A stretch of DNA of 63,723 nt, filler included, from Reticulomyxa filosa (GCA_000512085.1; 17 parts of 17 records of this genome joined end to end with filler, not necessarily neighbours in it), one strand, 5' to 3'. Positions 256 to 56,656 are shown, counted from the first letter of the whole stretch. The notes: a model not told the origin generated them from the sequence alone. Made by a program: numbers and translations.

Positions 256-1953
256 ATGAGCATGTTTCGACGCAAATATGGCAATACTACGGAATGCAAT
301 TCGGTCGACGAAACAAACACGACAGCCGGCTCTCGACCCGCAAAGCGCCGTCGATTGAATGATAACGAAGAACTTGGGTTTAATGCGACAGAAATCACCG
401 TTGATGCAATAGATAATCGATATTTCGGTAATCTGTGTCATTTGCTTCAGTACTTGAATTTGATGGAAAGTAGTGTGGTCGGGTCGTTAATTTTAAACGA
501 CACATACCAAAGAGAAATCATTGGGAAAACGTTGGATTATTTGTCGAAAAAGAAAGTGCAATTGTTTAGTCATTACTTGACCATGATCAACTTCATTTGG
601 CCCAAGTCGACGATCAACATCAATCGAGCTCCTTTCCTGTCGGACAAAGATGAGAATGACGAAAATGCCATTGAACCGGCTTCTCATCAAGACACTGAAA
701 ATGCCAACGCTAATTCACATGCACATGCCAATGCGAATACCAATGAAAATGAAACTACTAATGCAAATGCAAATACAAATGCAAATACAAATGCAAATGC
801 AAATACAAATGCAAATACAAATGCGAATGCAAGTGTAACGAAATACAAAAACAGGTTTTTGCAAGAGGAAGAAGACGACGACAATCACGAAATTTTCAAA
901 TGGGAGCCCATTGCAACCAATGATATTGACAAAAAAAAGAAACTGAAAGAAAAAAGAACGTCGCCAAAACACGAGAATGAACTTACTCCTCTCTCTCTTC
1001 CCTTATTTTCAATCACTCCAGTGACAACCACAACTACAGCTATGACACCCGCGTCCATAATCACAACCATGTCCACAACAGCTGCAATGACTACAGCGAT
1101 GCATGAGCATCCAAGTTTCAAAAGTAGCAATAAAGAATCTGATACATTGCAATTTGCCATGGCCTCGGGATCCGAAGTCCATGCATCAAAGTTGAAAGAA
1201 ACAGATCACGACAAAGAACGAGACAAACAAACGGAAGCAGCGAAAAAGAAAAAAGACACCGAATCGGGCGCCTCTATCGCGTGGCGCAAGAAAAAACTAT
1301 CCTTTCTCGGAGACTCGGACAGTGATGCTAGTGTTGATTTGAAGGACTCAAAGGAATTAAAACAGCCTCCTCTTCTTCCTCCAAAACACAAAGACACACT
1401 TGATTCGCCGGCAACTGAAACTCGAATACCGAAGAAAATTCCTTCAGTTTTGCGTTTGTTTTTTTTTTGTTTGTTTATATGTACATAGCATCTGTGCATA
1501 TGCGCATACATATATTTGTGTTTATTCAATGCCGATAAGAGCGCGCCCAAACCTACAAATGTCATTTCCTCGAAACCTAACAAAGACACAACAAGTATTC
1601 CTGGTAACAGTTTGAATAAAGCTCCCCCAAATGTCCCTGAGCCTGAAACTGCCAATACAAAAAAAATGGTGGAAAAGAAAAAGAAAAAACCGATACTCAA
1701 ACGCTACAAATTGACCACGTACAGTGCCTTAAAGAAAGAAACCAGCAAAGGAAGCAATAATGAATCTTCCAAAAAACTTCCTGTTGGACCTACAACATCA
1801 CCTACCAGAAATCAAAGTGGAAGCGAGAGTGATGAAAACGACGATAATGTATCTACCACAAAGATGACAAGAATTTACTCTGAAGCTGATCAAAGTATTA
1901 TCGCAGATACCGGAGTAGACAACAACGAAATGAGCTCGGATTGGTTTTCTTGA
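256..1953 (+). CDS. Hypothetical low-complexity protein (Asn/Ala/Thr repeat, Lys-rich), 2 exons
   Basis: ORFs 256..1488 and 1516..1953 share a frame and are joined by a 93-nt GT-AG intron at 1447..1539 (TCA|gttttg...ataag|AGC). Basic NLS-like RPAKRRR near the N-terminus. Confidence 0.65.
760..832 (+). repeat. Coding hexamer repeat (AATGCA/AATACA)n
   Basis: Encodes NANANTNANT within the 256..1953 gene. Confidence 0.9.
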
Positions 1954-3380
1954 CATCTTTTATACAACAATATATCTGTCTCTTGCTACTTGTACTCCAA
2001 GTCTTTTTTACTTCGTTTATTCTTGAAAAATGTTTTTTGTTATTTGCTCTTTGTTGTTGTTTTTTACATGTCCGTTTGTTTTGTGGTTGTTCCTTTTTTA
2101 ATTGTGTGAAATGAGTATGTCTGACACCATCTAGAAAAGATTACATGCAATCAGCTGTGGCAAAAAAATTAAAGACACGATCCTTTTAGCTAAAAATACT
2201 CATTTTAATAAAACCCAAAACATTTACATCACATAAAAAAAACATTAGGTGAAAATCTTTTTTTAATGATGTAAAGTAATGATAATGCATGATTTTTTTA
2301 TGCCGCAGTAATTTGCGTTGTTAAGTTAATAAAACTACTTTATAAAACTTTGAATTAAGTTCATTTATACTCGTGCACTTTTAAACATAGAAAATTTTTT
2401 GGGCAAATATCAACAAAATAAATTAAATAAAAACATAATTACAAAACAAATAAATCACTATTAAGCAACAGCTCTCTTGAAAATTGGATTTATCCTAAGA
2501 ATTTGATTAAATGGCTTAGGAAATATAATATACTTGCAAGATATAATACTACTCTATATATGCACAAAATATCACCCAATGCTTGGTAGTCTTAATTCTT
2601 TCATTTTGTTTTGGAATATAATAACATGTTGTGACATTTAAATCGAATTTATTCCTTGGAGCAAATAGTTAATTGCAAATATAAGGATTGTGCTTCGATG
2701 TTTTTTGATGTGACATTAAATCATTAACAGAAAAAACTTTTTCATAAAGATTCCGAAAACGAATATTTCGTTTCTTGAATAAATCACACTTCATTTTTTA
2801 TTATTATATCAAACATTTCTTTGAAATACATCAATTAACAATTTGTTTGAAAAAAAAACATTTTTAAAATATTACATCGCTTCTCTGATCTTATTTTTCC
2901 TTAGTAACTTGACTCTCAAACTGACTTCAATGAGTCTATTTTCTAAGTAAAGTTTGTATTTTTAATAACTATTGTTGACTTGTTCATGAGCTGGGAAATC
3001 TTCGAGATTTTTCCAAAAAAGAACTACTGTTCCGAAATATACGATCAAATAGATACTATTTTTAGTAATTTGTGAACTTCGATTTTGCGTTCAAATGTAA
3101 AATCAAAATTTATGTAAAATTACGTGTCACGCCTTTTGAGTCAAATAAACTCAAAACCAACAATTTTTCGACGCTTTGTACCTCAGCACCCGAACAACAA
3201 AGACAAAGTTAAAAACAACGAGATGTTGGCACTTCCCCAAAAGGATGACAACAAAAGAGACAATCACTTATTGACGGAAAAAAAAAGAATGAAAGAACAC
3301 AGAGTAGAAGAAAAAAAGTTACAATACACAAATAAAAAAGTGGAAAAAAAAGGGAAAAAAATAAACGAAATTTTATTTTA

Positions 3381-53778: not shown

Positions 53779-54104
53779 TATCTTCTTTTACGATATGTAT
53801 TGGATATGTTCAAGATTATGTTGTTAACACCTGAAACAAGATTCGAAGTAAACACCAGAACTTATTTCCATAAGCTTTTCTTGACTGTTTCTTCTTTTAG
53901 CATTTTTGTTTTGTCAAATGCTGTCTCAAAGAGTAACACTTTTGCATCTTCTCACGTGTGCGGATATTTGAAACTGCTTTGCTCGGTCAACTGTGTGACA
54001 GAATTACAAAAAAAGGAAAAATTGTTTCGCACCACACTAAGGTTAAAAAGGAAACACAAAAAGCGCAATAATAAATCAAACATCCGGCATAAAAATTGTA
54101 GCAA

Positions 54105-56656
54105 ATGGATATCAAATTGGATACTTTGGAATATGACGTAATAATATTAGGAACTGGTTTGGTGGAATCGATAATCTCTTGGTTAATATTTGTCTAGATT
54201 TGTGTTGACCGAAACAGCAAATGTGCAAACGAATGAAGTATATTCACAAAAAGAAGCAGGACAAGAATGTAGTAAGAGCGAAAAGACGCACATATGCACA
54301 CATTACACACACATACAAATAGCGCGTGTGCACGTGCAGGGAAAAAGGTATTGCATGTGGATTACAATCCGTACTATGGATCTCACTTTGCAAATATGCA
54401 TAAGAAGCATTACGAGCTGTATATTTCAGGTCGCCACAGGGAGCTATTGGAGTTACATTCATGTGGAAGACGAGATGAAAAATCATCATCTACTGGAGAA
54501 GCAGAAGGAGAAGAAGCGAAGCAAAAAGAAGATTTTTCGTTGAAAGAAGTGCAAAGTTTGTGTGTATTTTATGTTTGTTTTTTTTTTTTTTTTTGAACTT
54601 AAAAAAAAAAAGGGGGAAACACACAAAAAAAGCATTGGTAGGAAATGAAGACATTGATTACATTGGAATGGAATATCTAAGTGATGCAAAATCGAAATGG
54701 AATGTGTATGGAAACTTTGAATGGAAAGATTTCGGACCGGAATTGAAAGAATTGATCCATCCAAAGAATGAAAGAAAACGGACGATGCTCCCCTTGTTAC
54801 GAATCAAGAAACGAATCAATCACAATCCAATTCCAATTCAAATGAAAATGAAAGTGAAAATAAAGATGTAAAAGAAAAAGAAAAAGAAAAAGAACAAGAA
54901 CAAGAACATTTGACTGAAAATTTAAATGAGATCCAATATGTGGAGCATATGAAACAGGTGATTGAAATTTATGAAAATAAATATCGCCAAATCTCAATCG
55001 ATTTGATCCCCAATTTGGTGTATGCGAACGAGTCTTTCGTCGACATCTTGGTGCGCTCTCAAGTATCTCGCTACGTTGAATTTCGTGGCATCGTTCATAA
55101 TTTTGTTTTTTTCGATGGTGACAAGCCTTCCAAAGTTTCTTTTTTTTTTTTTTAATACTTTTCTTTGTATTGAACTTTTTTTGTTTTGAAATCCCACTTT
55201 TTTTTTTTTTTTGATGTCCCCCCCCCCTCCCCTTCCGTCCTCCTCCAATGACCAAAGGTTCCATTGTCCAAAGGAGAAGTATTCGCCAGCAAAGACCTGG
55301 GCATGCGTGAAAAGCGGCAATTGATGAAGTTCATGCACAGCGTTTTGGACGACAGTTCAAACCCGACCAACCAAATGGCCATTGACTTGCATCAGCAAAG
55401 CGTGCAACAACAATCTTTCATCGACGTTATGAATCAACAGCAACTGTCGACCAAAGTCCAAGATTTCATCAAATATGCTTTAGCTTTTTTAGATAGTCCA
55501 TCAGGCATTTTAAATAATTCAACACACAATACAATATATATATATATATTGTATTGAGTTTATTTTTATTGAATAAGGGAGGAGGGAGGAAGCAAGAGGA
55601 ATAATAATAATAAAAAAGATTGTCCGACTGTCGCCGAAATGCTGAAACGCTTGCAACTGTACTTTCAATCAATGGGCCGCTTTTGCGAGGGTGCATTTTT
55701 GTTTCCACTCTACGGATGTGGGGATCTGGCGCAAGGCTTTTGCCGTGCAAGCGCGGTAAAAGGAGGCGTATTTATATTGAACTGGACTATCCAAGGCATG
55801 GTAGTGAAGAAGCCAGTATTGCCATTGCATACGAAAACAGAGCAAGAAGTGAACAGCGCCGAACATATTGAAAAAGAAAACATGAGTGAATATATCAGCG
55901 TAGTGACACCGGCGAAGCAAGTGCTGAAATCCACATATTTGGTGTGTTCTTTGGATTATCTGAGTAAACACATTGGCGATGTGACAACACGCCACATAAG
56001 GATGACAGTGTTGTCGGATGGACCTTTGCAAGGCACCATCAGTGATCCGCCTGATCCTTTTGCGGATAATGACGAGTGGAAGAAACAACGTGGTAGTCAC
56101 AATGGAGTCATTCATATCCCTCCGGCCACACCTCTCTTTCAAAACCCTTGTTCCATTCATATCATTCAATTAGATCATACCTCCCTTGTTGTTCCTGACG
56201 GACTATGTTTCGGCAATTACAATTATTACTCCAATATTTTTTTTTTTTTTTTTTTGGAAAAAAAAGAGTCACCATTGGCTTGTTTGTGGGAAATAAATGC
56301 TTCTAGATTTAACATATATGTGGACCTTGGCGAATCAAAACAATATTGAAGAGTCACGACAAACCATGAAACGATGCTTTGAACTGCTGTATCGCAATCC
56401 AACCAAACACAAACAAGAACATAGCGACAAGCCCACTGGACTTTTTTACTGCTTGTATGAACAAAGGTTTCGAAGTGTCAACACACAACACATCCCTCGC
56501 AATGTCTTTGTCGTTCGAGATTTAGACGACACTTTGAGCTATGAAAACGTTGTTCAGCAGGTAAGTTTTCTTTTCTTTTATTTATTTTTTTTTTGATTGA
56601 CTTCATTTTTTATTTTTTTTTTGGAAAAAAAAAAGGCACAACAACTGTTCCAAAAA
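54105..56656 (+). CDS. CHM: Rab escort protein (REP/CHM, GDI superfamily), 3'-truncated
   Basis: YDVIILGTGLVESIIS-CACARAGKKVLHVDYNPYYG, a long insert, IDLIP...VSRYVEF, VPLSKGEVF...EKRQLMKF and FLFPLYGCGDLAQGFCRASAVKGG. Six introns, plus a frame break at ~54772. Confidence 0.92.

What the first reader, a model, noticed from the sequence alone, without database searches (positions are those of the whole stretch)
1447..56636. Introns with reversed polarity (U-rich 5' arm, A-rich 3' arm) that fold into hairpins: candidate structure-guided splicing
Seen: many hand-reconstructed introns in conserved genes have T-runs just after the donor and A-runs, not a polypyrimidine tract, near the AG. Examples are the hutG intron 9581..9752, the GEX1 intron ending aaacaaacaaaaaaaag, Rpt3 37868..38005, DOCK 23768..23908, the NDUFAF6 intron (ccc-T-run / A-run-ggg) and the last REP intron (T-runs then ggaaaaaaaaaaag). 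Several have specific complementary arms (see the separate findings). I saw no consistent branch-point motif. Established: U2AF65 normally needs a 3' pyrimidine tract, and fish introns flanked by complementary AC/GT repeats splice with reduced U2AF2 dependence. Inference: this lineage may bridge splice sites by intron self-pairing as a general rule. Counter-example: the third REP intron (~55135-55257) is pyrimidine-rich throughout.
Basis: partly seen in the sequence, partly recalled or inferred. Interest (0 to 1): 0.8.

Follow-up and report, generated by a model that had tools for sequence, protein, structure and literature searches.

The report
Foraminiferan introns with reversed, weak signals
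In this foraminiferan most introns start with GUU and a U-rich stretch and end in an A-rich stretch with no pyrimidine tract, which likely reflects an unusual way of recognising splice sites and not hairpins that join the two ends.

Summary
The window is 17 joined contigs of Reticulomyxa filosa. I rebuilt 37 introns; homologue alignments support 16 across the junction, and no RNA run was listed.

The polarity is real. The 5' end is more U-skewed than the 3' end in 31 of 37. Only 4 of 37 have a pyrimidine tract. CURAY-type branch motifs are not enriched. In all 10 introns with long T and A runs, T comes first.

Hairpin bridging as a general rule is not supported. Introns fold slightly better than shuffles (mean z -1.06), but so does the antisense strand (-1.33). 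The ten T/A-run introns are average (-0.28). Terminal arms pair no better with their own partner than with other introns or across exons, and the splice sites are not brought closer. The ends of all 7 intergenic gaps show the same T-then-A trend.

Most likely these are signal-poor U2-type introns whose U-rich 5' arm aids donor recognition; a changed U1, as in Entamoeba, is open. No earlier scan note covers this.

The parts
1447..1539 (+). intron, unknown gene; CA|GTTTTG; acceptor ambiguous (1488 or 1539)
   Evidence: reading frame only
3488..3559 (-). intron, unknown gene; CAG|GTAAAA
   Evidence: reading frame only
9581..9752 (-). hutG intron; CA|GTTAAT; T14 ... A19
   Evidence: both exons align to formiminoglutamase, one residue off
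12871..13119 (+). intron with TA microsatellite; ATT|GTGCGT
   Evidence: reading frame only
15707..15782 (-). 6PGD intron; CAA|GTTTTG; reversed skew
   Evidence: Pfam positions 233|234 adjacent
21922..21996 (-). GEX1-like intron 1; GAG|GTTTTA; acceptor uncertain
   Evidence: homologues suggest a longer exon
21657..21726 (-). GEX1-like intron 2; CAG|GTTTTT ... AAAAAAAG
   Evidence: homologue alignment
21307..21370 (-). GEX1-like intron 3; CAG|GTTTTT
   Evidence: homologue alignment
21085..21145 (-). GEX1-like intron 4; CAA|GTTGGT
   Evidence: gap-free homologue alignment; public model uses a later donor
20544..20604 (-). GEX1-like intron 5; ATT|GTTTGT
   Evidence: gap-free homologue alignment
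20319..20387 (-). GEX1-like intron 6; ACG|GTAGTT
   Evidence: reading frame; alignment inconclusive
23471..23569 (+). DOCK intron a; TTC|GTATGT
   Evidence: reading frame only
23768..23908 (+). DOCK intron b; GAC|GTTAAA; T14 ... A21
   Evidence: downstream exon matches DOCK_N from residue 1; upstream side by frame
32288..32403 (-). intron a of unknown gene U; AAG|GTAGGT
   Evidence: reading frame only
32140..32271 (-). intron b of gene U; CAA|GTTCGT
   Evidence: reading frame only
31718..31833 (-). intron c of gene U; donor GTAGTT or GTTTTG 3 nt later
   Evidence: reading frame only
31513..31669 (-). intron d of gene U; GCA|GTTTAT; T10 ... A30
   Evidence: reading frame only
31244..31326 (-). 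intron e of gene U; GT|GTACGT; A-rich only
   Evidence: reading frame only
30214..30344 (-). intron f of gene U; CTG|GTTATA
   Evidence: junction SRFTGA matches P0009
29736..29823 (-). intron g of gene U; GAA|GTTTAT ... A-run AG
   Evidence: junction CSSRK matches P0009
36166..36328 (+). PKA-like kinase intron 1; CAT|GTATCA; TA microsatellite
   Evidence: downstream exon aligned; upstream side by frame
36638..36707 (+). PKA-like kinase intron 2; AAA|GTTTCG; pyrimidine-rich end
   Evidence: needs a one-base homopolymer error to stay in frame
37648..37765 (+). Rpt3 intron 1; CAA|GTTCCA
   Evidence: spliced product aligns gap-free to transcript L001
37868..38005 (+). Rpt3 intron 2; CAA|GTTGAG; T9 ... 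A15
38369..38498 (+). Rpt3 intron 3; AAA|GTTGAG; internal 20-bp hairpin, A arm first
39054..39137 (+). Rpt3 intron 4; AAA|GTTTTG; predicted hairpin covers the donor
41025..41162 (-). MFS-like transporter intron 1; TGG|GTATGC; A-rich end
   Evidence: reading frame only; family name recalled
40580..40696 (-). MFS-like transporter intron 2; CTG|GTTTTT
   Evidence: reading frame only
41790..41900 (+). intron, repeat-family gene; ATT|GTGATA
   Evidence: reading frame only
43978..44065 (+). intron, zf-TRAF/WD40 gene; ATT|GTTATT
   Evidence: reading frame only
52446..52584 (-). NDUFAF6-like intron; ACA|GTTAGT; CCC-T8 / A11-G7 local hairpin
   Evidence: frame, and SQS_PSY match in downstream exon
54182..54322 (+). 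REP intron 1; TTG|GTTAAT
   Evidence: downstream exon matches GDI; junction motif recalled
54556..54641 (+). REP intron 2; AAA|GTTTGT; best whole-intron hairpin
   Evidence: reading frame only; fold
55135..55257 (+). REP intron 3; AAA|GTTTCT; pyrimidine-rich throughout
   Evidence: homologue alignment
55505..55618 (+). REP intron 4; GC-AG intron, CAG|GCATTT
   Evidence: equal length to homologues only with this donor
56207..56306 (+). REP intron 5; TAT|GTTTCG; T19 / A8 local hairpin; read through in the public model
   Evidence: homologue alignment
56561..56635 (+). REP intron 6; CAG|GTAAGT, the only consensus donor
   Evidence: 7 residues follow before the contig ends

Best explanation
These GU/GC-AG introns (61-249 nt) mostly begin with GUU and a U-rich arm and end in an AG-free, A-rich tail, and they are likely spliced by a U2-type spliceosome that uses the U-rich arm to help find a weak donor and takes the first AG after the tail, the predicted hairpins being likely a by-product. 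Shown: polarity, GUU donors, weak match to standard U1, no 3' pyrimidine tract, no CURAY enrichment, AG exclusion, no partner-specific end pairing. Inferred: the U-rich arm is bound by a TIA-1/Nam8-type protein (or by U2AF65 upstream of the branch point, where fungal pyrimidine tracts lie), across short introns defined as units. A degenerate branch A lies about 20 nt or more upstream of the acceptor, and scanning picks the first AG. Slippage lengthens U and A runs inside the two arms, so local hairpins follow.
For: U is 53-55% at +3..+16 and A is 48% at -13..-4. Donors: +3 U in 25 of 37 and 14 of 16 verified; +5 G in 11 of 37; neither -1 G nor +5 G in 17 of 37. Mean duplex energy with standard U1 is -2.4 kcal/mol for GUU donors, -5.1 for the others and -12.1 for the one consensus donor. 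AG occurs 5 times at -22..-3 against 33 in shuffles (p=0.0005 for each of two windows). End pairing is not specific. Genome-wide, only 6,244 of 50,607 annotated R. filosa introns (12%) score as 'major' and 23% have no recognisable donor motif (PMC11347168 Table S4). Precedents: TIA-1/Nam8 recruit U1 to weak donors through downstream U-rich RNA (PMC9311317 passages); fungal pyrimidine tracts lie mostly 5' of the branch site (PMC5677156 passages).
Against: No splicing factor or snRNA of this organism was examined; the window has no Rfam match and no genome is held. No RNA junctions: 21 of 37 introns rest on reading frame or a one-sided match. +3 U is only modestly above the U-rich background (p=0.08 against 55% U; p=0.04 against internal GTs), so the firm result is loss of the +3 purine rule, not a new motif. 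The folding excess persists without TA microsatellites (28 introns, mean z -0.76, p=0.012 against intergenic). The same T-then-A trend at gene flanks (7 of 7 gaps) needs no splicing factor. Two introns skip an AG 7 nt upstream of the acceptor AG. The Table S4 classes rest on a public annotation that misplaces several junctions here.
Confidence: 0.45

Rival explanations
1. A changed U1 snRNA 5' end, or routine use of the +1 shifted U1 register, reads AA|GUU donors directly, as a coevolved U1 does in Entamoeba. This can coexist with the best explanation.
For: -1 A goes with +3 U (15 of 25 against 1 of 12, Fisher p=0.004). Several donors fit the shifted register well (AAA|GUUGAGU, ACA|GUUAGUU). 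An intron at the same Rpt3 position in an unnamed eukaryote (L056) reads AAG|GTGAGT against AAA|GTTGAGT here (one case). Entamoeba GUUUGU donors have a complementary U1 (10.1101/2022.06.08.495308).
Against: The shifted register beats the standard one in only 11 of 25 GUU donors, with equal means (5.2 and 5.3 pairs). Beyond +3 the GUU class matches the U-rich background, and only 2 of 37 read GUUUGU. -1 A after K/Q/E codons (8 of 10) is near codon usage (63-75%). The association is not significant in the 19 supported introns (p=0.21). U1 itself was not seen.
Confidence: 0.2
2. One reading: U-rich and A-rich arms pair across the intron, bring the splice sites together and replace U2AF65, as AC/GT repeats do in fish. 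Plausible for a subset, unlikely as the rule.
For: T before A in 10 of 10 and co-occurrence p=0.02. Introns fold better than shuffles and intergenic windows. Half-swap p=0.028. REP intron 2, hutG and Rpt3 intron 1 have predicted helices spanning most of the intron; 13 of 37 have 8 or more long-range pairs.
Against: The ten T/A-run introns have mean z -0.28. Own arms are no better than foreign arms or cross-exon arms, whereas fish repeats co-occur across introns and not exons (PMC4691745). End-to-end distance is unchanged; 10 of 37 have fewer than 2 long-range pairs, and 35 of 129 intergenic windows also reach 8. The antisense strand is as structured. The Rpt3 intron 4 hairpin would hide its own donor.
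Confidence: 0.15
3. The T-then-A order is a DNA-level feature of any non-coding gap between coding blocks (chromatin or mutation bias, with slippage and assembly error stretching the runs) and has no role in splicing; the splice sites are simply degenerate.
For: All 7 intergenic gaps, whether convergent, divergent or tandem, are more T-skewed at the start than at the end. Close T-run/A-run pairs in intergenic DNA also favour T first (21 to 9, p=0.04). The pattern reads the same on both strands. Poly-T followed by poly-A gives the strongest nucleosome-free region in yeast (PMC4212969). Frame changes in DOCK, PKA and REP coding sequence suggest homopolymer errors.
Against: At intron scale the order is intron-specific: runs of 7 or more within 80 nt go 12 to 3 in introns and 6 to 10 in intergenic DNA (p=0.03), and the longest-run order is neutral in intergenic windows (66 of 129). 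Runs of 12 or more are about 20-fold denser in introns. It leaves unexplained how sites this weak are found.
Confidence: 0.17
4. The pattern comes from wrongly placed junctions.
For: No RNA evidence; 21 of 37 junctions are not alignment-verified on both sides; the public gene models often choose other sites.
Against: The four Rpt3 junctions reproduce a related transcript without gaps and all read AA|GTT. The 16 verified introns show the pattern as strongly (14 of 16 GUU, 14 of 16 polarity). No in-frame GTR-type donor lies within 5 nt of any supported GUU donor.
Confidence: 0.03

Closest known systems
Teleost (AC)m-(GT)n bridging introns (Lin et al. 2016, PMC4691745; abstract and parts 2-4 of 7 read)
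   Same: Complementary simple repeats in one intron; weak or absent pyrimidine tract; interchangeable arms.
   Different: [quoted passage not shown] Here arms are U/A homopolymers in the opposite order, often adjacent, no more stable than shuffles, and pair equally across exons.
Entamoeba GUUUGU introns with coevolved U1 (10.1101/2022.06.08.495308; abstract and passages read)
   Same: U at +3, often also at +4 and +7; similarly low 'major' fraction in PMC11347168 Table S4 (10-17% against 12%).
   Different: Entamoeba is intron-poor with a strict motif (88-90% GUUUGU); R. filosa is intron-rich with degenerate donors, 2 of 37 GUUUGU, little +5 G, and 12 of 37 keeping +3 purine. U1 here is unknown.
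Fungal introns with 5'-located pyrimidine tracts (PMC5677156 passages) and TIA-1/Nam8-dependent weak donors (PMC9311317 passages)
   Same: U-rich sequence near the donor and not before the AG; short introns.
   Different: Fusarium keeps GURAGU donors (+5 G 93%) and CTRAY (91%); both are missing here, and AAG acceptors are common (14 of 37).
Atypical human 5' splice sites read in the +1 shifted U1 register (described in PMC4856993 passages; the original paper, PMC2719486, is not held)
   Same: A|GUU donors such as AA|GUUGAGU.
   Different: Recalled as rare in humans; here GUU is the majority, but most GUU donors do not fit the shifted register.

Membership tests
U2-type spliceosomal introns | GU/GC-AG ends that restore the reading frame | tested here: met
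   36 GT-AG and 1 GC-AG; 16 alignment-verified
U2-type spliceosomal introns | AG-free zone before the acceptor | tested here: met
   5 AG at -22..-3 against 33 expected
U2-type spliceosomal introns | GURAG-type donor complementary to U1 | tested here: not met
   +3 purine 12 of 37, +5 G 11 of 37, GTRAG 1 of 37
U2-type spliceosomal introns | 3' pyrimidine tract and CURAY branch motif (typical, not universal) | tested here: not met
   4 of 37 with a tract; no enrichment of 7 patterns
U2-type spliceosomal introns | Lariat formation by the major spliceosome | not testable with these tools
   no RNA run listed; no snRNA in window
Fish-type structure-bridged introns | Complementary repeats co-occur at opposite intron ends | tested here: inconclusive
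   10 of 37 have both runs, 5 of them 15 nt or less apart; p=0.02 overall, 0.16 within genes
Fish-type structure-bridged introns | Pairing across introns, not across exons | tested here: not met
   own arm stronger in 12 of 23, p=0.62
Fish-type structure-bridged introns | Repeat-bearing introns more stable than shuffles, ends brought together | tested here: not met
   mean z -0.28; end distance 23.7 nt against 24.7-26.4
Fish-type structure-bridged introns | Splicing independent of U2AF2 | not testable with these tools
   needs experiment
Entamoeba-type transformed donors | Strict GUUUGU donor | tested here: not met
   2 of 37
Entamoeba-type transformed donors | U1 with complementary change | not testable with these tools
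   no genome held
Introner-derived introns | Shared sequence family among introns | tested here: not met
   all-against-all blastn: the 25 of 52 filtered rows printed are short low-complexity matches of 47 nt or less
U12-type introns | Minor snRNAs and RUAUCC donor | tested here: not met
   no such donor among 37 (nearest GTATCA); zero snRNA counts for the species in Table S7 of PMC11347168, columns taken to be the minor snRNAs

The most novel reading that the evidence does not exclude
An intron-rich eukaryote (about 50,000 annotated introns) has rewired both ends of splice-site recognition: a modified or shifted U1 reads AA|GUU donors, the pyrimidine tract has moved to the 5' end, and the acceptor is found without U2AF65 behind an A-rich tail, with U:A helices compacting a subset of introns.
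Probability: 0.25. Interest if true: 0.75.

Novelty: new variant of a known kind. Interest (0 to 1): 0.5.

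Why it matters
Transformed splice signals are known mainly from intron-poor genomes, where they become stricter. 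Here an intron-rich genome seems to have lost the +3 purine, the +5 G, the pyrimidine tract and a visible branch motif together, so it offers a genome-scale test of how a spliceosome finds sites with almost no consensus. A U1 search and an RNA-seq logo on existing public data would settle much of it. In practice the public gene models misplace or read through several of these introns, which affects foraminiferan annotation.

Tried and rejected
No whole genome is held. No RNA holder was listed for 36017-41542, so no reads were laid; this blank is not evidence. Searches for genomic DNA of related foraminifera found none: the REP alignment in metagenome contigs, and the gene U alignment in genome and viral contigs. 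An Rpt3 scan gave 80 loci, mostly transcripts or intron-less genes of other eukaryotes, with one close transcript, L001 (87% identity). Covariation could therefore not be tested. Rfam found nothing in the window. Repeat finder output was swamped by the N linkers and was not used. A candidate branch motif next to the acceptor (WTG at -16..-6 in 22 of 37) was found after the fact, held in only 4 of 8 further acceptors, and is likely a side effect of AG avoidance in an A-rich tail; I dropped it. G-U wobble asymmetry favouring the RNA strand was not seen. Five of the nine start coordinates (four clearly) and two of the ten stop coordinates missed their codon, so those flank counts are not used; the gap test is used. 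Left out before counting: introns cut by contig ends and three doubtful ones in genes with stops or frameshifts (about 44250-44337, 57800-58500, 61590-61700). Pfam checks of the upstream exons of REP intron 1, DOCK intron b, NDUFAF6, MFS and PKA were not obtained. U2AF1/2, SF1, TIA-1/Nam8 and snRNAs of the species were not examined. Literature: ten searches showed no paper describing these intron features in Reticulomyxa. The genome paper (Glockner et al. 2014, Curr Biol) was seen only as a citation and may show splice-site logos. Figure 2 of PMC10245619 lists spliceosomal proteins of R. filosa, but only its legend could be read. bioRxiv supplements are closed.

Full report
Source. The window is 17 short contigs joined by N linkers with TTAATTAATTAA. 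Three exons match public proteins of Reticulomyxa filosa at 100%. No whole genome is held and no RNA run was listed, so all counts come from this window.

Intron set. I rebuilt 37 complete introns in 14 genes (median 111 nt, range 61-249). Sixteen are supported across the junction by homologues: four in Rpt3 by a gap-free alignment to the related transcript L001, four in REP, four in the GEX1-like gene, two in gene U, hutG (one residue off) and 6PGD. Three more (DOCK b, PKA 1, REP 1) have a tool match on the downstream side only and were counted with them as the 19 'supported' introns; one search used an earlier set of 15. The rest depend on reading frame. The public gene models are not independent support: they read through or misplace several of these introns.

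Polarity. It is real. Skew runs from +0.40 to -0.29 along the intron. The first 20 nt are more T-skewed than the last 20 in 31 of 37 and 14 of 16 verified introns. By halves it is 27 of 37, but only 10 of 15 in the first supported set (p=0.30) and 14 of 19 in the final one (p=0.06); ten introns go the other way. Only 4 of 37 have a pyrimidine tract; -4 is A in 25 of 37, and -3 is T, A or C in 16, 14 and 7. No CURAY-type pattern is enriched. Long runs are denser in introns than in 14,951 bp of intergenic DNA, and T precedes A in 10 of 10 introns with both. But all 7 gene-bounded intergenic gaps also begin T-richer than they end, and close run pairs there favour T first 21 to 9. The intergenic set may hide unrecognised exons.

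Folding. Introns fold better than dinucleotide shuffles (mean z -1.06; 29 of 37 below zero, 8 below -2) and than 129 intergenic windows (-0.23, p=0.0006). Nine introns with TA microsatellites give -1.99 and the other 28 give -0.76. The antisense strand gives -1.33, so the excess is ordinary inverted-repeat symmetry. Terminal arms of 25, 30 or 40 nt pair with their own partner no better than with others (p=0.44, 0.28, 0.19); whole-half swaps give p=0.028 for all and 0.21 for the supported set, the largest single contribution being a local hairpin with its A arm first. Long-range pairs (7.0 against 5.3-6.0) and end-to-end distance (23.7 against 24.7-26.4 nt) do not differ from controls. Cross-exon pairing equals cross-intron pairing, unlike fish (PMC4691745). 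A few introns (REP 2, hutG, Rpt3 1) do have predicted spanning helices, run co-occurrence is above chance overall though not within genes, and swap tests are blind to interchangeable homopolymer arms. Bridging in a subset is therefore not excluded; as a rule it is not supported. Pairing cannot by itself explain why U comes first (inference).

Donors are atypical: +3 is U in 25 of 37 and 14 of 16 verified, +5 G occurs in 11 of 37, only 1 of 37 reads GTRAG, and GUU donors pair weakly with the standard U1 5' end taken from PMC4856993. -1 A accompanies +3 U (p=0.004 in all, 0.21 in the supported set). Because the whole 5' arm is about 55% U, +3 U is only slightly above background; the firm statement is that the +3 purine rule is lost. 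At the other end AG is strongly excluded for about 20 nt or more, as expected for scanning from an upstream branch point. A published table agrees at genome scale: 12% of R. filosa introns score as major and 23% as non-canonical; among the species rows C to V that I saw (part 15 of 265 of the supplement), only Entamoeba invadens was lower among those with over 1,000 introns, judged by eye with nine rows computed. That table rests on the imperfect annotation.

Mechanism. The simplest reading is short U2-type introns with very weak core signals. The U-rich arm beside a weak donor is where TIA-1/Nam8 act (PMC9311317 passages) and where fungal pyrimidine tracts lie (PMC5677156 passages). The acceptor would be the first AG after an AG-free, A-rich tail. 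Slippage in the two arms then yields T and A runs and, inevitably, hairpins; homopolymer errors in the assembly make run lengths unreliable (frame changes seen). All protein and snRNA steps are inferred. Rivals are a coevolved or shifted U1 (precedent in Entamoeba), bridging in a subset, and a DNA-level poly-T/poly-A linker arrangement as in yeast promoters (PMC4212969, first part of the main section read).

Papers seen. PMC4691745: abstract and parts 2-4 of 7. PMC11347168: passages, and supplement rows of Tables S1, S2, S4, S7, S8. 10.1101/2022.06.08.495308: abstract and passages. PMC4212969: abstract and part of the text. PMC9311317, PMC4856993, PMC5677156, PMC10245619, PMC3079666, PMC13746701, PMC12730881, PMC10946897: passages only. 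Ten searches found no description of these features in Reticulomyxa; the 2014 genome paper was not read. The scan's own notes on this genome concern viral elements only.

Verdict. Observation partly confirmed, structure-guided splicing not supported as a rule, but the intron architecture (GUU donors, U-rich 5' arm, A-rich AG-free tail) is a real and cheaply testable variant of spliceosomal introns. Interest 0.5.

Noticed in passing
window 55505-55618: GC-AG intron in the REP gene (CAG|GCATTT); the public model reads into it as coding.
   Followed up: yes
window 38405-38455: Perfect 20-bp inverted repeat of (AAAAC)n/(GTTTT)n type inside Rpt3 intron 3, A arm first; looks like a template-switch duplication.
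   Followed up: partly
L056 ~2615-2710; L025 ~5262-5395; L002 ~935-1085: Other eukaryotes carry introns in the same GPPGTGKT codons of Rpt3; L056 at the identical position with AAG|GTGAGT, the other two a few bases earlier with GTGAGT donors.
   Followed up: partly
window ~26350, ~36636, ~54790: Reading-frame changes inside DOCK, PKA-like and REP coding sequence, the first two at short T runs; likely assembly errors.
   Followed up: partly
   Followed up: partly
window 47430-47574 and 53440-53610: Two near-identical copies of a ~140-nt element (tgtggggagtctactgtggagaa...gtagttaactg), one ending at a contig end; possibly a dispersed repeat or transposon end. Seen by eye.
   Followed up: no
window 6450-7550 and 34850-35700 (-): Two related copies of an expanded, intron-poor repeat-protein family, one with stops; seen by eye.
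   Followed up: no
P0002, P0003 (unnamed ENA contigs): REP relatives whose predicted proteins run on at the position of REP intron 6 and start after intron 4, suggesting shared intron positions in related genomes; their DNA could not be fetched.
   Followed up: partly
introns, both strands: A runs of 7 or more are rarely preceded by G in introns (5 of 54) compared with intergenic DNA (32 of 85).
   Followed up: no
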